Shown: in pieces, positions 5,469-32,582 of the stretch | Position numbering within the stretch: position 1 is the stretch's first letter | Layout: every line of letters starts with the position of its first letter | Assembly (NCBI GenBank): GCA_023246655.1 | Contig: JAHFHX010000006.1 | Location: 1 to 54,958, forward strand | Source of the DNA: Candidatus Magasanikiibacteriota bacterium | Lineage (GTDB): Bacteria > Patescibacteriota > Patescibacteriia > Magasanikbacterales > GWA2-37-8 | DNA length: 54,958 bases | Reading direction: 5' to 3' | The notes under the pieces: generated by a model | Told to the model about the DNA's origin: nothing | What the model saw: only the letters and a program-made list of their open reading frames with translations | The model's database searches: none | Position numbers and translations under genes: made by a program

Positions 5469-5543
5469 TGGAGCGGGTAAGGGGAGTCGAACCCCTGTCA
5501 CCAGTTTGGAAAACTGGGATAATAGCCGTTATATGATACCCGC
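5469..5543 (-). tRNA. tRNA-Gly(TCC)
   Basis: GCGGGTA...anticodon loop with TCC...GGTTCGACTCC...TACCCGCTCCA. Cloverleaf with encoded CCA. Confidence 0.95.
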
Positions 5544-5614
5544 AGTGAGTGAAAACGAAGTTAACTTCGGTTTTCCGAGCGAGGAATATTATATACTAGG
5601 TATATGATACCCGC
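5530..5614. repeat. 14-bp direct repeat duplicating the tRNA-Gly 5' end
   Basis: TATATGATACCCGC at 5530-5543 and 5601-5614. The spacer holds the palindrome GAAGTTAACTTC. Confidence 0.75.
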
Positions 5615-5640
5615 GGTGAAAGTCTAAAGTCTATAAAGTT

Positions 5641-25959: not shown

Positions 25960-26092
25960 AGGGTGAAAATAACGAATTTCGAATGACAAGTGACTATAAT
26001 GAACGTGATCATTTTATCAAACATCTCTGCTCTTGACAAACAGACATTGTTTATTTGTACATAGTATTATTCTGTAGTACAATTATTTTGTT

Positions 26093-26782
26093 ATGAGCAA
26101 AACCATACTAAAACAAAGGGTACGAGCTTTGCGTCGATCTGGAAAAACCTATGCGGAAATACAGCGAGTGGTACGTAAAAAAATTGCACGTAGCACTCTT
26201 TCTGTCTGGTGCGAAAATATTGAACTTTCTCCAACCCACCAACGGCGAATCAAACAAATTATTGTTGCTAATCAAATTCGAGCACGCCAAACAGCAGTCG
26301 TCGCCAATCGTGGAAGACGCCAATTATATCTTAAAAAAATTCTTACGGAAAATAAGGATTTGCCAAGATTGGCCAAAAATAAAGACGTTGGAAAAATTAT
26401 TTTGGCTATGCTCTACTTGGCAGAAGGTTCAAAAGGCAAACGTGGCTGTTTAACCTTTGGTAATTCTGACCCTTTAATTATACAACTTTTTCTTTATTTA
26501 TTACGGCGATGCTTTAATATTGATGAAAGTAAATTTCGCTGCACAGTTCAGTGTCGAGCCGATGCTAATATTTCGTACCTTGAAAAATTTTGGGGGAGTA
26601 TTACAGAAATTCAGCATAGACAATTTTATTCATCGCGAATTGATCCGCGGACAATTGGTAAAAAGACTCAAAAACCCAATTATAAAGGCGTGTGCAAACT
26701 TGACTATTTCTCTGCTCATTTGTATAATGAGCTCACAATTATTAGTCAGATTGTGTGCAATATTTCACAAATGGGCCGTTAG
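26093..26782 (+). CDS. HTH plus LAGLIDADG-like domain protein
   Basis: N-terminal HTH (SGKTYAEI...IARSTLSVW), LAMLYLAEGSK single LAGLIDADG-like helix, FGNSDPLII. The TAG stop lies inside the tRNA. Confidence 0.65.
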   Translation: MSKTILKQRVRALRRSGKTYAEIQRVVRKKIARSTLSVWCENIELSPTHQRRIKQIIVANQIRARQTAVVANRGRRQLYLKKILTENKDLPRLAKNKDVGKIILAMLYLAEGSKGKRGCLTFGNSDPLIIQLFLYLLRRCFNIDESKFRCTVQCRADANISYLEKFWGSITEIQHRQFYSSRIDPRTIGKKTQKPNYKGVCKLDYFSAHLYNELTIISQIVCNISQMGR

Positions 26783-26845
26783 CACAGCTGGTAGTGCGCC
26801 TGGCTGGCAGTCAGGAGGTCGCGGGTTCGACCCCCGCACGGTCCA
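26773..26845 (+). tRNA. tRNA-Ala(GGC)
   Basis: GGGCCGT/ACGGTCC acceptor stem, anticodon loop CTGGCAG, GGTTCGACCCC T-arm. CCA not encoded. Confidence 0.93.
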
Positions 26846-26848
26846 CAG

Positions 26849-26876
26849 AAACACGTCACTCGCGAGTGACGTGTTT
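26849..26876. terminator. Perfect 28-bp palindrome; likely bidirectional terminator
   Basis: AAACACGTCACTCG|CGAGTGACGTGTTT between the tRNA and the convergent fibre gene. Confidence 0.7.
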
Positions 26877-26881
26877 TAATA

Positions 26882-29800
26882 TTATGGAGTTGTTGAGGGG
26901 GCGGTTGATTCTCCGTGTGCTGGAGTTATTGATGACGACTCACTTGGTGGTGTTGATGAAGTTGATGTTGTTGATTCTGGGGGAGGCGCGGGGATCTGGA
27001 GATTAGGGTCGGGCGGTGAGGGGGGTGGTACAACTAGATTGGGGTCAGGGCCCTCTGCTGGAGTAGTATTGTGAACACGCCGTTTTGCCACTACAATCCA
27101 ATCGAAGGTAGCGTTGCTGGTACCGCCGGAAAGCTCTTTGACCACAAATCCTTGAGCAGTTTTTTCACTCACATAAATTCCTTTAGCTTCGCCTGATGTA
27201 AGCGTGACAGTGACTTTGAGTGGAGTAGCCGAATCAACAATCTCTTCCGTAGCTTGATCAAAAATTATTCGCGCTTCACCAGCCACGAGTTGTGATGAAC
27301 TTGAGAAAACAAATTCCGCGGTTGGTGACTGCATAGCGACCATTTCTTTATCTCCGGCTGAAGTAGACAGACGAGTAATAAACCTGCCTTCCGCGTCAAT
27401 TTCCCAGCGGTTATCTTGGCCCTTAATGGCTGCGACGTTGATAAGCACTTGATTATTGATATTAAAATCAGTGGGAAGAATAATTTCACCATTGTTGCTG
27501 GTTTTTATGGTTAAACCATGATTCCACCCCAATTTAACAAACGTTAATACTTTTCCAATCTCAGTACCATCATAGGTTTCTAAAGCCACGCCAATTGTTG
27601 GTCCTTCTCCCACCGCTTTAACCGCAACGCCGGGAATAGATGATAACGTAAGCTGATCACCGCGTTGAATTGATCCTTGAGATGTAGAAACTTTAACTGG
27701 AACACGACCGGCCAAGGCTACCAGTGGCCGAGTTGAGGTAACTTCAGCCGCTGGCCCCATAACCACATCAGACCCATTAATTGCTAGGGCTGGTTTTGTT
27801 GAAACAACACCAATTGCCGTGTCATTAACAAGAGCTTTTTTAATAGTTGCTCGCTCTGGAGCAGCCGTATCAACAGCTACTACATCACCTGCCTCCATTA
27901 CTTGCGATGCGGGATAACGCTCGGCGATATCGAATACATCGCCTGGGTCATCAGCTCCGTTTCCTCCAGCCGTATCTACCTTTAACCCACCGTTGACTTC
28001 CGCACCACAATTATTACCGGTAGTAATGCAGATGCCCCCCTGAACGACTAATGACCACGCTGGTGTAGTGGTATTAATTCCAACTCTTTTATTAAACAAA
28101 TCAATCTGCATCGCCACATCGCTCGGATTTGTCGTCCCTTTAATAAAGTCAAAGGTGCTACTTGCTGGGGTATATTGCAAACCCCAGGCGTTATATTGAG
28201 GAGATTCCGCTAGTACCGTACGACTAGCATTGCTACCAGTTTGATACATGTAAATCATTGGCTTGTTAGACCCAGTACTCAGTGGAAAATAAATACTTTT
28301 TTCGTCATCATTTAGAACAATATCCGAAGAAAAAGTGCCAGTAGCACTGACGCTACCAAACCTGAGAGTGCCTGAGACGCTTACATTACCACTGGAATCG
28401 ACATAAAATTTACCGAGCGCATCAACGGTGGAGCTGGCGATGACGAGTTTGTTGCTCTCGAGCGAAGATGTGACCGTGCCACTGCCAGCAAACACTCCAC
28501 CGCCTTGCACATTTAAACTTCCATTTCCTAAAGTGAGCAAACTATAGGGTGTCAGAGTGCCGATACCAACGTTGCCACCTATAATGGCCATGGTATTGGC
28601 TTGAGCCAATATTGGCCCGGTAGTATCAAGGCCAATTAAAACAGCATAATCACCGGTCGCTTGGCTGCCAATCCCCCCCATTGCAATTGAATGGCTGCCG
28701 GTAGCTTGATTAGAATCTCCTAAAGCAATGGAAATGATTCCGCTAGCCGTATTGGCATGACCAAACGCAGTCGAATAGTTTCCAGAGACAGTATTTTGAT
28801 CACCACTAGCAAAACTGTAATCACCGGCGACATTGCTCGCCCACCCCACCGCGGCTGAATAATTTCCGCTCACTGTATTATTCTGTCCAAAAGCTACTGA
28901 ATAATTTCCGATACTGCTATCATCCCATTGTGTACCAGCAACGGCTCCAGCTCGAAATGCTGCTTTAGCTGGAACCCACATGAGACGGGTACCAGCACCG
29001 CTTGCCGGTGCTCCGCCGACGACTCCTGTATAGATACCCTGAGCCAAAATGGTGCCTGAAGTGCTAATGGCACCATCGCCCGTCGGGGAACCATCTACAT
29101 AAAATACACCGGCATTAAAATTGCTCGCTTGACCAACGATAAGCGAGGTGGCAGTAGCAACTGTAGAGCTCGTGCCATTGCCGAGTGATAAATAATTGCC
29201 GTTGAGGGTGGTGGAGGCAATACCACCACCGATGTTAAGACGAAGAACAGTAGAAGAGACTTGGGAAATGAAACCTGCCTGGAAGGTGTTGAGGCCACTG
29301 TAGGTAACACCGCCAGTGAAGGTGGTGGCGCCAAAAACTTGGAGCGTGCCAGAGGCACTAACATTGCCGGAAGAATCAACGTAAAATTTACCCAAGGCGT
29401 CAGCAGTGGAACTAGCGATGACGAGTTTGTTGGATTCAAGTGATGAAGTGGTAGAACCGTTGCCAACAGCCAAACCGGCATTACTACCCGCAACAGTTAA
29501 CAAAAAATTAGGAGCTAATGTACCAATGCCAACATAATTAGATAGCATTGCAATAGTGTTGTTCTGAGCCAGAGTGTAGGCAGTGGATGTTCCTCCAATA
29601 GCCATTGAGTTGTTACCGCTGACGGTTAATAAGTTCCCTAGGGCAATAGAATTAATTCCGCTTACCGTATTGGTGGCACCAAATGCAAAGGAACTAGGCC
29701 CAGATACAGAGTTGCCAATACCAACCGCTCCAGCATGATTACCGCTGATGGTATTGTTGTCTGTACCTAACACGAACGAAGCGATACCATTAATAATATT

Positions 29801-32410
29801 TGATCGCCCCAAGGCAATTGAATACTGGCCACCGGCTCCACCATTAGCGACAGAATTACCGCTTCCAAAGGCTGAAGCATTTGGTGCGTGGACTGTATTG
29901 TTGTCACCAATTGCCGTACCGTATCCATAATCAGCCGTATTTTGATAACCAAACATATAATTGTATGATGCCGCACTGACTGCATTAACATTGCTGCGAT
30001 ACCCAATGCCAATATTGTTGGTAGCCCCACCAGCAAGACCGGCAATAAAATTTTCTACTCCAATACCAATTGAATCATCGGACTCTGGTCGGTTGCCATT
30101 CCCTAAGGCAATGGAAGTAGCGCCGCTAGCAATATTATTTACTCCGAGAACAAATGAATTCTGACCAATGCTGGCATCATCCCAACTAGCCGCCCCTCCT
30201 CCTGTCAACCGACCTGCCCGAAACGCTCCTTTAGACGGAATCCACATCATTCGAGTTCCAGCTTCACTCGGTAATGGGTTACCCCCACCACCAGTGCCTT
30301 CTACCAGAAACACACCATTACTTACTGTGAATTTAGCAACTGGTGTAGAAGTTCCGATTCCTAAAGCCACATTAATGGTTGAAGTGGTAATGGCGTTAAT
30401 TGAACTAGATGTATAGATAGCACCATTCCCAGCCGCTGAACCATCTACAAAGAACACTCCTTGATTAAACCCGGAGTTGCGTTGACCGAGAATAAGGGAG
30501 GTAGCGGTGTGGATTGAGGTGGTGGTGCCATCGGTTACCGACAAATAATTAGCGGCAACGGTTGTTGACACCCCGGCATTACCAACAATGATACTCGAGG
30601 ATGAATAAAGTGGTTCGCTACTCTTGAGCCAAAGTGGAACGGTAGTGGAAGGAGTAAGAGTGAGAGTACCAAAGTTAGTTTGTTTCACCCAATCCGCGGC
30701 TAAGTTGCTACACCCAGTGCAACTAGCCACGGTTAGTGTGCCCGAAGCACTCACGTTGCCGCTGAAATCAACGTAAAATTTACCAAGATCAGCGCTGGGA
30801 GTTTGACCAATAATAAGTTGAGTATTACTCAGACTCGAGGTCACAGAAAAACCAAGCGCTGCGCTAATATCATTAACAAAAACGCCGCCTTGAAAATTAC
30901 CATAACGCCATTTCGTGGAGGCAGTACCGAGATCATACAGACCTCCTGTACTTGGATTAACGTTCCCGGCAAAAGTGCCGACACCAGCAGTCAAGGCATC
31001 AGCGCCAATATCGATGGCACCGAAACCCGAAGTGATAGAACCGCTCCCGAGTGCGCCAACCGAGGTGAGTGATGAATTAACAACAGCGGAACCAAGTGTT
31101 GTGGCGCTGAGAACGTTGGTGTTGTTGATGAGATAGACACTGCCACTAGGAAGATTGATATTGCCACTAGCGACGGAAATGCCACCGGAGAAAGTTGAGG
31201 TGGTGCTGTCGCCGAAGATAGTAGTAGTAGCCGAGCCTCCAACATAGATTCGATCAACAACCGACAAACGGGTTGAGGAAGCTTGCGTTAGTGAACTTAA
31301 TCCTACCACTGATAGAGCATTACTTAATGTGGTGACGCCGGTAACACCAAGCGTACCGCCAATGGTGGCATTGTTGGTAACGGCAAGACCGGTGCCAGCG
31401 GCAGTTGCGCTAAGGGCTCCAGCGATTGTCGTCGCACCATCAACTAGAAAGGTAGAAGAAGCGCGTAGAGCACCACTGATTTGGAGGTTGCTGCTAAAAG
31501 TAGAGGAGACGCTTGAAAGTAAACCACCGGTGAATGTCGCCAGACCACTAACACCAAGCGTGCCGCCGAGAGCGCTATTACCAGTGATAGCGACTGTTCC
31601 TAGATTGGCGTTTGTGATGGTAGAACTGACGACCGTTGTTGTAGCGAATGTGGTGGTGGCAGAAAATGTATTACTACCAGTAAAAATCTGATTACCAGCT
31701 AACTGCGCACTACTGGTAGCGCAACCTATACAGTTTGTTACAGTAAGGTTGGTGATATTGGCATTGGTAAGCGTTGAACTGGTAAATGTCGACGTTGCGA
31801 ATGTCGTCGTGGCAATAAAAGTAGAATTACCGGTGACATAGGCGCCTGTTGATGTGACGCGATTAAATTGAAAATTCCCACTACTATCAGAAATGGGGAT
31901 GTATGTTGAACTAGATGCCGTGCTAGTAGCAGTCACACCATCAAGCTGGCGGGCATTAAACGCATAGGGGGCAGTAGTAATTTGTTTGCGTGGCGTAAGT
32001 GTCTCGGCTCCAACCCGCACCTCTAAGTATACGGAACCATTCGTTTGAAAAATAGTATTATCAAGAGCGTTAGTACCACTACTGCCTAAATCAACACTAA
32101 AAAGTCCGCTGGTTGGTGTTACATTGATAGTCGTCGGTGCAGCCAGAGTTCCAGAAACAGTATAGAGTGCGTTCCCACCGGTCACAGCATCATAAAGAAG
32201 AATTTTCATGCTTTGCGTAGTGGTAGCGGCTAGCCCATTAACTAACAACTTTCCTTGATACGTAACAATCGCTGGGGCAGTGGCCGCTTTGGTGGGCGTG
32301 CCTTGTAATAGCCAGGCGCCGCCAAAAAATAACAATAACAAAACTACACCAATAGCAAAAAATACCCGGCGTTCATTTTTTGAATTTCTCCCGGTTTTCG
32401 GAAACAACAT
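26882..32410 (-). CDS. Very large Thr/Ser/Gly-rich surface fibre/adhesin with YadA-like head repeats and a C-terminal intramolecular-chaperone-like domain
   Basis: Start reassigned to ATG 32410 (TM/signal follows; a terminator lies in the longer ORF). N-terminal YQGKL...GLFSVDLG...LTPRKQITTAPYA, two blocks of (S/A)xAxGxxNxxxG repeats, C-terminal DIAERY...GVVSTKP...LAGRVPVKV. Confidence 0.75.
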   Translation of the reverse strand: MLFPKTGRNSKNERRVFFAIGVVLLLLFFGGAWLLQGTPTKAATAPAIVTYQGKLLVNGLAATTTQSMKILLYDAVTGGNALYTVSGTLAAPTTINVTPTSGLFSVDLGSSGTNALDNTIFQTNGSVYLEVRVGAETLTPRKQITTAPYAFNARQLDGVTATSTASSSTYIPISDSSGNFQFNRVTSTGAYVTGNSTFIATTTFATSTFTSSTLTNANITNLTVTNCIGCATSSAQLAGNQIFTGSNTFSATTTFATTTVVSSTITNANLGTVAITGNSALGGTLGVSGLATFTGGLLSSVSSTFSSNLQISGALRASSTFLVDGATTIAGALSATAAGTGLAVTNNATIGGTLGVTGVTTLSNALSVVGLSSLTQASSTRLSVVDRIYVGGSATTTIFGDSTTSTFSGGISVASGNINLPSGSVYLINNTNVLSATTLGSAVVNSSLTSVGALGSGSITSGFGAIDIGADALTAGVGTFAGNVNPSTGGLYDLGTASTKWRYGNFQGGVFVNDISAALGFSVTSSLSNTQLIIGQTPSADLGKFYVDFSGNVSASGTLTVASCTGCSNLAADWVKQTNFGTLTLTPSTTVPLWLKSSEPLYSSSSIIVGNAGVSTTVAANYLSVTDGTTTSIHTATSLILGQRNSGFNQGVFFVDGSAAGNGAIYTSSSINAITTSTINVALGIGTSTPVAKFTVSNGVFLVEGTGGGGNPLPSEAGTRMMWIPSKGAFRAGRLTGGGAASWDDASIGQNSFVLGVNNIASGATSIALGNGNRPESDDSIGIGVENFIAGLAGGATNNIGIGYRSNVNAVSAASYNYMFGYQNTADYGYGTAIGDNNTVHAPNASAFGSGNSVANGGAGGQYSIALGRSNIINGIASFVLGTDNNTISGNHAGAVGIGNSVSGPSSFAFGATNTVSGINSIALGNLLTVSGNNSMAIGGTSTAYTLAQNNTIAMLSNYVGIGTLAPNFLLTVAGSNAGLAVGNGSTTSSLESNKLVIASSTADALGKFYVDSSGNVSASGTLQVFGATTFTGGVTYSGLNTFQAGFISQVSSTVLRLNIGGGIASTTLNGNYLSLGNGTSSTVATATSLIVGQASNFNAGVFYVDGSPTGDGAISTSGTILAQGIYTGVVGGAPASGAGTRLMWVPAKAAFRAGAVAGTQWDDSSIGNYSVAFGQNNTVSGNYSAAVGWASNVAGDYSFASGDQNTVSGNYSTAFGHANTASGIISIALGDSNQATGSHSIAMGGIGSQATGDYAVLIGLDTTGPILAQANTMAIIGGNVGIGTLTPYSLLTLGNGSLNVQGGGVFAGSGTVTSSLESNKLVIASSTVDALGKFYVDSSGNVSVSGTLRFGSVSATGTFSSDIVLNDDEKSIYFPLSTGSNKPMIYMYQTGSNASRTVLAESPQYNAWGLQYTPASSTFDFIKGTTNPSDVAMQIDLFNKRVGINTTTPAWSLVVQGGICITTGNNCGAEVNGGLKVDTAGGNGADDPGDVFDIAERYPASQVMEAGDVVAVDTAAPERATIKKALVNDTAIGVVSTKPALAINGSDVVMGPAAEVTSTRPLVALAGRVPVKVSTSQGSIQRGDQLTLSSIPGVAVKAVGEGPTIGVALETYDGTEIGKVLTFVKLGWNHGLTIKTSNNGEIILPTDFNINNQVLINVAAIKGQDNRWEIDAEGRFITRLSTSAGDKEMVAMQSPTAEFVFSSSSQLVAGEARIIFDQATEEIVDSATPLKVTVTLTSGEAKGIYVSEKTAQGFVVKELSGGTSNATFDWIVVAKRRVHNTTPAEGPDPNLVVPPPSPPDPNLQIPAPPPESTTSTSSTPPSESSSITPAHGESTAPSTTP

Positions 32411-32514
32411 AACCAACGTTAAATTTGTAGATAGTATACACTTTTTTTCACCTTTCTGACATGTTAAAAACTGTTGATAAGTAAGGTCAATGGAAGAGCT
32501 TGGATGATAACGAA

Positions 32515-32540
32515 AAAACTGCCCGTATCCGGGCAGTTTT
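32515..32540. terminator. Hairpin terminator after the 32583-35813 gene
   Basis: AAAACTGCCCG-TATC-CGGGCAGTTTT. Confidence 0.7.
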
Positions 32541-32582
32541 CCTGCAAACTTTGAATTACGAAATACCCGTTTTGTCATCTAT

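What the first reader, a model, noticed from the sequence alone, without database searches (positions are those of the whole stretch)
26093..26845. LAGLIDADG-like gene whose stop codon lies inside the tRNA-Ala 5' end
Seen: the last codons (ATG GGC CGT TAG) use tRNA positions 1-10, so mRNA and tRNA overlap. The protein has an HTH and one LAGLIDADG-like helix, with no intron or intein visible. Inference: a free-standing homing-endonuclease-derived element that targets tRNA 5' ends, or a domesticated tRNA regulator. RNase P cleavage would remove the stop codon and give a non-stop mRNA, a possible feedback. It parallels the 5'-end scar at tRNA-Gly.
Basis: partly seen in the sequence, partly recalled or inferred. 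Interest (0 to 1): 0.65.

Follow-up and report, generated by a model that had tools for sequence, protein, structure and literature searches.

The report
Nuclease-like selfish gene docked on tRNA-Ala
A small DNA-binding, endonuclease-like gene sits against the start of the alanine tRNA gene and borrows its stop codon from it; it belongs to a large, unnamed family in ultra-small (Patescibacteria) bacteria in which each branch is tied to one particular tRNA gene and comes and goes between related genomes, as selfish "homing" genes do.

Summary
A 229-aa ORF (26093-26782) ends in TAG, which is bases 8-10 of tRNA-Ala(GGC) (26773-26846).

This is not chance:
- Among 81 orthologous loci, all 79 that can be assessed have tRNA-Ala(GGC) adjacent. 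In 77 it lies directly downstream, and in 49 the stop lies inside the tRNA.
- The wider family has at least 2150 clusters at 50% identity. It occurs in 94 of 401 sampled Patescibacteria genomes, with up to 7 copies per genome.
- 37-38 of 40 paralogues precede a tRNA, and protein clades follow tRNA identity.

Within the window's own taxonomic family the gene is patchy:
- One relative (G401) has a 96%-identical tRNA and the same ychF neighbour but no such gene.
- Another (G428) keeps only the last 26 codons.

The gene is AT-rich for its genome. It carries a conserved promoter of its own that implies a leaderless mRNA.

The N-terminal HTH is supported. The LAGLIDADG assignment is only partly supported. 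The motif has an invariant Glu-Gly and the secondary-structure order fits. There is no Pfam hit, no clear match to a solved structure, and only weak profile similarity.

Best reading: a free-standing, homing-endonuclease-type cassette specialised on the tRNA-Ala(GGC) gene. DNA cutting is unproven. The non-stop-mRNA idea is possible but not a conserved feature. No link to the tRNA-Gly repeat was found.

The parts
26054..26083 (+). The cassette's own promoter: -35 TTGTAC (26054-26059) and -10 TACAAT (26078-26083). The two elements form an imperfect inverted repeat. The ATG follows 9 nt later and there is no Shine-Dalgarno sequence, which implies a leaderless or near-leaderless mRNA.
   Evidence: locate the site in the window. 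One search gives the consensus TTGcACATtGA..TCTaTGGTACAAT across 76 orthologous loci, with information content 0.88 bit/position against 0.09 further upstream. One search shows the -10 ending 6-7 nt before the ATG in 44 of 63 scored loci, and an SD-like motif in 0 of 81.
26093..26782 (+). ORF of 229 aa with N-terminal HTH, long helix and C-terminal alpha/beta domain. It is the tRNA-Ala(GGC)-clade member of the family.
26099..26227 (+). Helix-turn-helix DNA-binding domain (residues about 3-45), of the homeodomain-like / transposase-PAI type.
26231..26350 (+). Single long helix (residues 47-86) linking the HTH to the C-terminal domain.
   Evidence: pLDDT 94-97.
26375..26779 (+). C-terminal alpha-beta-beta-alpha-beta-(alpha)-beta-alpha domain (residues about 95-229). 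It is LAGLIDADG-like, but membership of that family is not proven.
   Evidence: pLDDT 92, pTM 0.85.
26402..26434 (+). Motif LAMLYLAEGSK (residues 104-114). The helix ends in invariant E111-G112, the position of the catalytic Asp-Gly of LAGLIDADG enzymes.
   Evidence: hhalign puts E-G on D-G.
26700..26728 (+). Promoter-like site TTGACT-17-TATAAT (11 of 12 matches) inside the codons for LDYFSAHLYN, ending 44 nt before the tRNA. It is probably a second promoter that can drive the tRNA alone.
   Evidence: The same motif at the same place is all that survives in the decayed copy of relative G428. It is not conserved family-wide (p=0.054).
26773..26846 (+). tRNA-Ala(GGC), intact, with G3:U70 and no encoded CCA. 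It is the only copy in the genome.
26773..26782 (+). 10-nt overlap of ORF and tRNA. The stop codon TAG (26780-26782) is tRNA bases U8-A9-G10.
26849..26876 (+). Perfect 12-bp hairpin followed by TTT. It is the likely terminator after the tRNA, shared with the convergent 1898-aa gene.
   Evidence: the hairpin is shown by a chance miRNA-model match.

Best explanation
The ORF is a free-standing, homing-endonuclease-type selfish gene. It has an N-terminal HTH, a rigid helical linker and one LAGLIDADG-like domain that would act as a dimer. Its clade is specialised on the tRNA-Ala(GGC) gene.

The mobile unit is a cassette of about 720 bp. It begins at its own conserved promoter (26054) and ends at the first base of the tRNA.

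Inferred mechanism:
- The protein recognises the tRNA-Ala(GGC) gene or its 5' boundary in genomes that lack the cassette.
- It breaks the DNA there.
- Repair from a cassette-bearing copy places the cassette against the tRNA. Incoming DNA could arrive by natural competence, which is common in this phylum.

The insertion costs the host little. The tRNA is still made by read-through from the cassette promoter followed by RNase P cleavage, and in this window probably also from a second promoter inside the last codons of the ORF.

The ORF has no stop of its own and simply runs on until the tRNA's U8-A9-G10 reads as TAG. The overlap is therefore a by-product of the cassette ending at tRNA +1. A side effect is that RNase P-cut transcripts lack a stop codon.

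Shown: the linkage, clade-to-tRNA specificity, patchiness, the empty and decayed alleles, the conserved acidic residue, the cassette's own promoter, and the atypical composition.

Inferred: nuclease activity, the target site, gene conversion, co-transcription, and autoregulation at the palindromic promoter.
For: Linkage:
- 79 of 79 assessable orthologous loci have tRNA-Ala(GGC) adjacent, 77 of them directly downstream.
- 37-38 of 40 paralogues precede a tRNA on the same strand, with a gap of -23 to +105 nt.
- Protein clades follow tRNA identity: 19 label changes, against a minimum of 16 and a shuffled mean of 34; 0 of 200 shuffles score as low.

Selfish-element signature:
- The family occurs in 94 of 401 genomes of the phylum, with 1-7 copies each. 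The Ala-clade gene is in only about 10 of the 401.
- In the window's own taxonomic family, 10 of 17 genomes with a tRNA-Ala match lack any family member. Besides the window, only G427 has the Ala-clade gene next to its tRNA-Ala(GGC).
- G401 has a 96%-identical tRNA and a YchF neighbour 76% identical, but no such gene. DNA similarity with the window starts at tRNA +1.
- G428 retains only the last 26 codons, abutting the tRNA.
- The gene is 37.7% GC against 44.7% for the genome, in the lowest 2.3% of long ORFs.
- In three genomes the gene lies on the other side of the same tRNA, in the order tRNA, terminator, gene, ychF. What is kept is DNA proximity to the tRNA, not one transcript layout.
- The two deepest Ala-clade branches each contain Moraniibacteriota and Kerfeldbacteria members, which argues against purely vertical descent.

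Nuclease-like features:
- E111 is invariant and G112 and K114 are above 90% in 46 paralogues that share only 21-57% identity with the window protein. One homologue has Asp in place of Glu.
- The secondary-structure order fits LAGLIDADG.
- The best BFVD Foldseek hit is a 'Homing endonuclease'. Many intein hosts and LAGLIDADG proteins are in the top 50.
- hhalign gives P=0.003 in the correct register.

Own promoter.

Host machinery: RNase P RNA and tmRNA are present.
Against: No nuclease activity has been shown, and LAGLIDADG membership is not established:
- There is no Pfam hit in any of about 90 members scanned.
- There is no PDB sequence hit.
- PDB Foldseek gives OmpA-like domains at TM about 0.4 and no LAGLIDADG structure in the top 50.
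- There is no profile similarity to an I-DmoI-like homing endonuclease family of this phylum.

Nearly all copies are intact (78 of 80 loci) and the clade is deeply diverged. That would also fit a gene useful to its host.

The tRNA of the cassette-bearing window is identical over bases 1-52 to that of the empty relative. Self-protection therefore cannot come from tRNA sequence differences. The flank left of the cassette is not conserved, so a classical split target site is not evident.

No target-site duplication was found. No phage or IMG/VR copy of this clade was found.

The empty and occupied alleles come from different genera. The intergenic DNA would not align in any case, so the 'boundary at +1' is only suggestive.
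Confidence: 0.55

Rival explanations
1. The protein is a domesticated, non-cutting DNA-binding protein that regulates the promoter it shares with its tRNA gene. Each paralogue would be a dedicated, cis-encoded regulator of one tRNA gene.
For: The HTH is well supported. The clade's promoter is a conserved imperfect palindrome, which looks like an operator. Nearly all copies are intact. Regulators often sit beside their targets in either orientation.
Against: Most genomes of the phylum, and of the window's own taxonomic family, have tRNA-Ala(GGC) without this gene. The empty allele has an ordinary promoter. The gene's composition is atypical for its genome. A decayed copy exists. The acidic residue expected of an active site is invariant, whereas the known domesticated relative WhiA has lost it (established knowledge).
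Confidence: 0.18
2. The gene belongs to a different kind of mobile element. It would encode a transposase- or recombinase-like protein with a transposase-type HTH and a novel catalytic domain, and it would insert next to specific tRNA genes.
For: The HTH matches transposase families: HTH_SB, HTH_Tnp_1, HTH_Tnp_IS630 and PHROG 'transposase'. The C-terminal domain has no confident fold assignment. tRNA genes are classic integration sites (established knowledge).
Against: There are no terminal inverted repeats and no duplication of the tRNA 5' end at the left border. There is one copy per tRNA identity rather than scattered copies. No DDE, serine or tyrosine recombinase motif or family hit was found.
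Confidence: 0.1
3. The protein acts on RNA. It would be a maturase-like or tRNA-precursor-binding factor made from the leader of its own pre-tRNA. The stop-in-tRNA overlap would couple its translation to RNase P processing.
For: The stop lies inside the tRNA in 49 of 77 orthologues and in many paralogues. RNase P RNA and tmRNA are present. Some LAGLIDADG proteins are RNA maturases (established knowledge). Two paralogues precede tRNA genes predicted to carry introns.
Against: 28 of 77 orthologues stop at or before the tRNA's first base, and three genomes have the gene downstream of the tRNA behind a terminator. The HTH is of a DNA-binding type. The tRNA here has no intron. Relatives lacking the gene have the same tRNA.
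Confidence: 0.07
4. The protein is a defence or competition nuclease that targets tRNA genes of invading DNA or of competitors. The adjacent tRNA would be a protected copy.
For: The distribution is patchy and multi-copy, and the composition is atypical.
Against: There is no meaningful match to known defence families. The adjacent tRNA is identical in its first 52 bases to that of a relative without the gene. No partner gene is conserved next to it.
Confidence: 0.05

Closest known systems
Free-standing homing endonuclease genes of T4-like phages, especially SegB in the T4 tRNA gene cluster (established knowledge; not tested here)
   Same: The gene is free-standing, not in an intron or intein. 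It sits among or next to tRNA genes, is sporadically present between relatives, and is presumed to spread by a double-strand break and co-conversion of flanking DNA.
   Different: SegB is a GIY-YIG enzyme of a phage. This gene is chromosomal, in Patescibacteria, with an HTH plus a LAGLIDADG-like domain. It is part of a large radiation in which each clade is tied to one tRNA identity. It abuts tRNA +1 so closely that it uses the tRNA's bases as its stop codon.
LAGLIDADG homing endonucleases (I-CreI-type single-motif homodimers; I-DmoI / Pfam LAGLIDADG_3 enzymes of archaeal and CPR rRNA introns, PMC11270868)
   Same: There is one helix ending in an invariant acidic residue plus Gly, followed by a beta hairpin and a second helix, with an alpha-beta-beta-alpha-beta-beta-alpha-like order. 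The host phylum is the same as that of the rRNA-intron enzymes.
   Different: There is no Pfam hit, no confident structural match to solved enzymes, and no profile similarity to the I-DmoI-like family of this phylum. The first hairpin is short. An extra helix and a loop of about 40 residues lie between strands 3 and 4. There is an added N-terminal HTH and a 40-residue helix. The gene is not intron-borne.
I-TevI as autorepressor of its own promoter (established knowledge)
   Same: It is a modular nuclease in which a DNA-binding domain is tethered by a linker. A homing enzyme could bind an operator overlapping its own promoter. Here the clade's promoter is a conserved imperfect palindrome.
   Different: Binding to the promoter is inferred only. 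I-TevI is a GIY-YIG enzyme encoded in an intron.
WhiA (domesticated LAGLIDADG plus HTH transcription factor of Gram-positive bacteria)
   Same: It combines a LAGLIDADG-type domain with an HTH in a bacterial chromosomal gene.
   Different: WhiA is universal and single-copy in its lineages. It has two degenerate LAGLIDADG domains without the catalytic acids, and its HTH is C-terminal. This gene is patchy and multi-copy, has a single domain that keeps an invariant Glu, and has an N-terminal HTH.

Membership tests
LAGLIDADG endonuclease superfamily | Signature helix ending in a conserved acidic residue followed by Gly | tested here: met
   The motif is LAMLYLAEGSK. E111 is invariant and G112 is above 90% in 46 paralogues. 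One homologue has Asp instead of Glu.
LAGLIDADG endonuclease superfamily | Significant match to a Pfam LAGLIDADG model (LAGLIDADG_1, _2 or _3) | tested here: not met
   The window protein has no hit. No LAGLIDADG family is among the 25 families that most members match, in the 48 and 46 members scanned. The window protein matches no PHROG, and none of the 25 PHROGs that most members match is a homing endonuclease family.
LAGLIDADG endonuclease superfamily | Alpha-beta-beta-alpha-beta-beta-alpha fold that superposes on solved enzymes | tested here: inconclusive
   The domain model is confident (pLDDT 92) and its element order fits, apart from one inserted helix. In PDB Foldseek the top hits are OmpA-like domains at TM about 0.4, and no LAGLIDADG structure is in the top 50. 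With the full-length model, I-Tsp061I appears only at rank 19 with E=0.62. In BFVD, homing endonucleases, LAGLIDADG proteins and intein hosts are prominent, but at E=0.13-1.1 and TM 0.37-0.45.
LAGLIDADG endonuclease superfamily | Profile-profile similarity to bona fide members | tested here: inconclusive
   hhalign gives P=0.003 with the motifs in register against 11 PF14528-positive domains. It gives P=0.28-0.46 against an I-DmoI-like family of 32 sequences.
LAGLIDADG endonuclease superfamily | Metal-dependent, site-specific DNA cleavage | not testable with these tools
   This needs the purified protein and substrates.
Free-standing homing endonuclease genes (functional class) | Sporadic presence or absence at one defined genomic site among related genomes | tested here: met
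   Searches show the patchy presence. G401 is an empty allele with a 96%-identical tRNA and a conserved ychF neighbour.
Free-standing homing endonuclease genes (functional class) | Own expression signals, and not inside an intron or intein | tested here: met
   A conserved promoter lies directly before the ATG, and the tRNA is continuous.
Free-standing homing endonuclease genes (functional class) | Decayed copies, as expected from the gain, decay and loss cycle | tested here: met
   G428 keeps only the last 26 codons against tRNA-Ala(GGC). Two of the 80 loci have internal stops.
Free-standing homing endonuclease genes (functional class) | Cleavage of the gene-less allele and spread by gene conversion | not testable with these tools
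WhiA-type domesticated LAGLIDADG-HTH regulators | Universal single-copy gene, loss of the catalytic acids, two LAGLIDADG domains and a C-terminal HTH | tested here: not met
   This gene is patchy and multi-copy, has an invariant Glu, and has one domain with an N-terminal HTH.

The most novel reading that the evidence does not exclude
The 5' flank of a tRNA gene is a third 'self-erasing' home for homing-endonuclease genes, beside self-splicing introns and inteins.

Under this reading:
- A cassette of about 720 bp, made of a promoter and a leaderless nuclease gene, lands exactly at tRNA +1.
- RNase P plays the part that splicing plays for introns.
- The cassette even supplies a replacement promoter for the tRNA inside its last codons. 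That promoter can outlive the gene as a scar.
- Each of a dozen or more protein clades has specialised on the DNA of one tRNA identity across a whole phylum.
- The stop-in-tRNA overlap makes RNase P-cut transcripts non-stop, which would keep the level of a dangerous nuclease low.
Probability: 0.35. Interest if true: 0.8.

Novelty: new variant of a known kind. Interest (0 to 1): 0.62.

Why it matters
If the family consists of active nucleases, it would be a large natural set of compact enzymes. A single-sequence search finds at least 2150 clusters at 50% identity. Each clade would read a different, highly conserved 70-nt gene. That is of interest for understanding how protein-DNA specificity diversifies, and as a source of new sequence-specific DNA-binding or cutting scaffolds.

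It would also show a new way for a selfish gene to hide without an intron or intein, by relying on tRNA processing.

It would further explain a recurrent 'hypothetical protein' next to tRNA genes in Patescibacteria genomes. It would affect how tRNA promoters and leaders in these organisms are annotated.

No description of this family was found in the searchable literature. Earlier notes from this scan had already flagged the family many times.

Tried and rejected
1. Target-site duplication. I looked for a copy of the tRNA's first 18 nt within 400 nt upstream of the ORF in 74 loci. The mean best match was 10.6 of 18, against 10.1 for shuffled probes. The few high scores were other tRNA genes. 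Rejected.

2. Family-wide internal tRNA promoter. I compared the best promoter score in the last 120 nt with a synonymous-codon null: 8.82 against 8.63, p=0.054. It is not general. It is real-looking only in a subset that includes the window and the G428 remnant.

3. Link to the tRNA-Gly(UCC) 'scar'. The 19-nt direct repeat is real. However, tblastn with 46 paralogues against 400 nt upstream of all 48 tRNA genes of this genome found only the Ala locus.

4. Phage origin. There was no hit among 50,697 phage records and no IMG/VR relative of this clade. The diverse alignment was too variable for a pattern scan.

5. Defence system. Only weak HTH-level hits in PADLOC.

6. Remnant in G401. The 95-aa ORF that fills the gap in the empty allele is unrelated to the family.

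7. ychF linkage. ychF is a neighbour in only 7 of 81 loci, so the association is with the tRNA, not with ychF.

8. RNA evidence.

9. Extra profile test for LAGLIDADG. A comparison against an I-DmoI-like family from this phylum gave no similarity.
Full report
THE OBSERVATION

The window holds a 229-aa ORF at 26093-26782 on the + strand. tRNA-Ala(GGC) lies at 26773-26846 (ARAGORN; Rfam tRNA model 63 bits, G3:U70 present). The last codons ATG GGC CGT TAG occupy 26771-26782. The stop TAG is therefore tRNA bases U8-A9-G10, and the two genes share 10 nt. A perfect 12-bp hairpin at 26849-26876 follows the tRNA.

IS THE OVERLAP CHANCE? WHAT IS THE FAMILY?

The protein has no significant Pfam, NCBIfam or PDB sequence match. 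It does have 345 full-length homologues of 220-250 aa in the large protein collection. All that carry a name are from Parcubacteria/Patescibacteria.

I fetched 80 orthologous loci from species-representative genomes and tabulated what follows the gene:
- 77 of 81 loci, the window included, have tRNA-Ala(GGC) directly downstream on the same strand.
- Two loci run off their contig.
- Two Magasanikbacteria loci have the same tRNA directly upstream instead.
- Every assessable locus (79 of 79) therefore has tRNA-Ala(GGC) adjacent.

In 49 of the 77, the stop codon lies inside the tRNA: 35 at the window's register, 11 five bases further in, and 3 elsewhere. Seven stop at or abutting +1, and 21 leave a gap of 1-88 nt. 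The overlap is thus a common but not obligatory consequence of the ORF ending at the tRNA's first base. In one reading frame the near-universal U8-A9-G10 of tRNAs supplies TAG.

THE WIDER FAMILY

A single-sequence HMMER search finds at least 2150 clusters at 50% identity. In 401 genomes sampled across the phylum, 94 have a member, with up to 7 copies in one genome. Only about 10 have the Ala-clade gene. The window's own genome has one copy.

I fetched 40 paralogues from ten multi-copy genomes. 34 have a tRNA gene directly downstream on the same strand. With intron-tolerant tRNA prediction, the count rises to 37-38 of 40. The tRNAs are Ala-GGC, Gln-UUG, Ile-UAU, Gly-GCC, Gly-UCC, Met-CAU, Tyr-GUA, Ser, Trp, Val-GAC, Phe and three Arg isoacceptors.

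A maximum-likelihood tree of 46 members groups them by tRNA identity. It needs 19 label changes, against a minimum of 16 and a shuffled mean of 34. None of 200 shuffles scores as low. The copies without a detected tRNA nest inside the Met, Gln and Tyr clades.

PRESENCE, ABSENCE AND DECAY IN CLOSE RELATIVES

Within the window's own taxonomic family, 21 of 41 genomes gave a BLAST match to this tRNA. Of the 17 best of these, 10 have no family member at all. Only one other, G427, has the Ala-clade gene.
- G401 has a tRNA 96% identical to the window's, differing only by compensatory changes in the T stem. Its YchF neighbour is 76% identical. It has no such gene. Instead it has an unrelated 95-aa ORF, a terminator, and an ordinary TTGACA-N18-TATAAT promoter about 90 nt before the tRNA. 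DNA similarity to the window begins at tRNA +1.
- L002 has YchF 78% identical, in the same divergent position, and it has the gene at 63% identity. Relatives at about the same distance thus differ in presence.
- G428 keeps only the last 26 codons (GIDYFSADIYNELLIVSKMIGEGLIK) wedged between the previous gene's stop and tRNA-Ala(GGC).
- In G427 and the two Magasanikbacteria loci the order is tRNA-Ala(GGC), terminator, promoter, gene, ychF. The gene can therefore sit on either side of this tRNA.

The gene has 37.7% GC (GC3 29%) in a 44.7% GC genome, which places it in the lowest 2.3% of long ORFs. In the Ala-clade tree, the two deepest branches each contain Moraniibacteriota and Kerfeldbacteria members. 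That does not fit strictly vertical descent.

THE CASSETTE'S SIGNALS

Upstream of the Ala-clade ORFs, a stretch of about 35 bp is far better conserved than the protein would predict. Its consensus is TTGcACATtGA..TCTaTGGTACAAT, at 0.88 bit per position against 0.09 further upstream. Conservation begins at the -35 element.

The -10 hexamer ends 6-7 nt before the ATG in 44 of 63 scored loci. None of the 81 loci has a Shine-Dalgarno-like motif. This implies a leaderless mRNA. The -35 and -10 parts form an imperfect inverted repeat (window arms 26052-26060 and 26077-26085). That could serve as an operator for the dimeric protein, but this is inference. Promoters of gene-less tRNA-Ala alleles in the family do not share this sequence, so it belongs to the cassette.

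Inside the window's ORF, the best promoter-like site of the region (TTGACT-17-TATAAT, 26700-26728) lies in the codons for LDYFSAHLYN, 44 nt before the tRNA. The G428 remnant preserves exactly this piece, with the same two hexamers 46 nt before its tRNA. This suggests the site is the tRNA's working promoter there. Across the clade, however, such a promoter is not selected beyond what the amino-acid sequence gives (p=0.054).

THE PROTEIN

AlphaFold2 on 32 homologues gives a confident model (pLDDT 90). It has three short helices at residues 3-39, one long helix at 47-86, and a C-terminal alpha/beta domain.

The N-terminal part is an HTH. 29 of 46 paralogues hit Pfam HTH_23, and others hit HTH_SB, HTH_28 or HTH_7. 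The family profile matches the Sleeping Beauty PAI subdomain.

The C-terminal domain, modelled alone (pLDDT 92, pTM 0.85), has the order helix, hairpin, helix, strand, helix, strand, helix. Its first helix ends in the family's hallmark Y-x-x-E-G-x-K. E111 is invariant in 46 paralogues that share only 21-57% identity with the window protein. This is where LAGLIDADG enzymes carry their catalytic Asp-Gly.

Independent support for LAGLIDADG is weak:
- There are no Pfam LAGLIDADG hits.
- PDB Foldseek returns OmpA-like domains at TM about 0.4, with no LAGLIDADG structure in the top 50. With the full-length model, I-Tsp061I appears at rank 19 with E=0.62.
- In BFVD the top hit is a 'Homing endonuclease'. 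The top 50 are rich in LAGLIDADG proteins and classic intein hosts, but at E=0.13-1.1.
- hhalign against 11 PF14528-positive domains from this phylum gives P=0.003 with the motifs in register.
- hhalign against an I-DmoI-like family of 32 sequences gives nothing.

I therefore call the domain LAGLIDADG-like and treat membership as unproven.

MECHANISM

The best-supported reading is a free-standing homing-endonuclease-type cassette specialised on the tRNA-Ala(GGC) gene.

Shown:
- the near-absolute linkage;
- clade-to-tRNA specificity;
- patchy distribution;
- the empty and decayed alleles;
- the cassette's own promoter;
- atypical composition;
- a conserved acidic residue.

Inferred:
- that the protein cuts DNA;
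- that its target is the tRNA gene or its 5' boundary;
- that it spreads by repair-mediated copying;
- that the tRNA is released from read-through transcripts by RNase P (its RNA is present).

A cut at 26773 removes the TAG, and tmRNA is present. But 28 of 77 orthologues stop at or before the tRNA's first base, and the window probably has a separate tRNA promoter. I therefore see it as a side effect that may limit expression, not as the point of the arrangement.

One problem remains for the homing model. The occupied and empty tRNA alleles are identical over bases 1-52, and the left flank is not conserved. How the resident copy would escape cutting is unexplained. One possibility is that the cut falls in the leader, at a distance from a binding site inside the tRNA gene. 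This is speculation.

COMPARISON WITH WHAT IS KNOWN

The closest functional analogue is the set of free-standing homing endonuclease genes of T4-like phages, notably SegB in the T4 tRNA cluster (established knowledge). The closest structural candidates are single-motif LAGLIDADG enzymes and the I-DmoI-like enzymes of CPR rRNA insertions (PMC11270868, which has no mention of tRNA). WhiA shares the domain combination but fails on distribution, domain order and loss of the acids.

Literature searches found no description of this family.

Earlier notes from this same scan had reached similar conclusions on other genomes. I treated them as leads. I re-derived the linkage, the clade specificity and the presence/absence independently. 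I could not reproduce a clear structural match to I-DmoI for this clade.

VERDICT

The feature is a new variant of a known kind: a homing-endonuclease-like gene in a new niche, with tRNA-identity-specific clades. Interest is moderate to high for the family as a whole. The stop-codon overlap itself is a by-product.

Noticed in passing
window 5530-5548 and 5601-5619 (tRNA-Gly(UCC) is 5469-5543, minus strand): A 19-nt direct repeat (95% identity, spacing 71 nt) duplicates the last 5 leader bases plus the first 14 bases of tRNA-Gly(UCC) upstream of the gene. The upstream copy lies in the spacer of a promoter-like TTCACC..TATAAT. No remnant of the HTH/nuclease-like family is present there.
   Followed up: partly
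L148 (G018:C4, Tyr clade) and L149 (G374:C6): Two paralogues that seemed to lack a downstream tRNA are followed, at gaps of 6 and -10 nt, by tRNA genes that ARAGORN predicts only when introns are allowed. These are tRNA-Tyr(GUA) with a 192-nt insert at position 37 and tRNA-Phe(GAA) with a 208-nt insert at position 34. The Tyr call agrees with the protein's clade. These may be group I intron-bearing tRNA genes.
   Followed up: partly
L082, L083, L090-L092, L097, L099, L101, L144, L152, L156, L157, L159: In 13 of 40 paralogue loci a second tRNA gene lies 56-108 nt upstream of the start codon on the opposite strand. For example, tRNA-Leu(CAA) lies opposite three of the four Met-clade genes. The cassette therefore often sits between two divergently transcribed tRNA genes.
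   Followed up: no
L088 (G032:C1:520346-520984): The one gene that precedes tRNA-Val(GAC) falls within the starred 10-row clade that holds all nine tRNA-Ala(GGC) genes (99/95 support), on a long branch. The two anticodons differ only in the middle base. This may be a recent switch of tRNA partner.
   Followed up: no
L103 1455-1510 (G401) and L105 (G416): Gene-less tRNA-Ala(GGC) alleles carry a conserved leader element, CGTAGCTT(C/T)AGCGAAG, just before tRNA +1. It can form a hairpin, and in G401 it can pair with the first bases of the tRNA.
   Followed up: no
window 26882-32578 (minus strand): A 1898-aa repetitive, Thr/Ser/Gly-rich predicted surface protein converges on the tRNA and appears to share its terminator hairpin. 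It is unrelated to the gene downstream of the tRNA in relative G401.
   Followed up: no
L001, L002, L015, L050, L052, L057, L062, L071 (record titles): Several contigs that carry this Patescibacteria-type gene and its neighbours are deposited as 'uncultured Gammaproteobacteria' or 'Bdellovibrionales' MAGs. These labels are likely taxonomic mislabels.
   Followed up: no
24 of the 81 Ala-clade loci (for example L079 2383-2457): tRNA-Arg(CCU) lies within 400 nt upstream of the Ala-clade gene, in either orientation. This suggests an old tRNA-Arg(CCU)/tRNA-Ala(GGC) neighbourhood into which the cassette is inserted.
   Followed up: no
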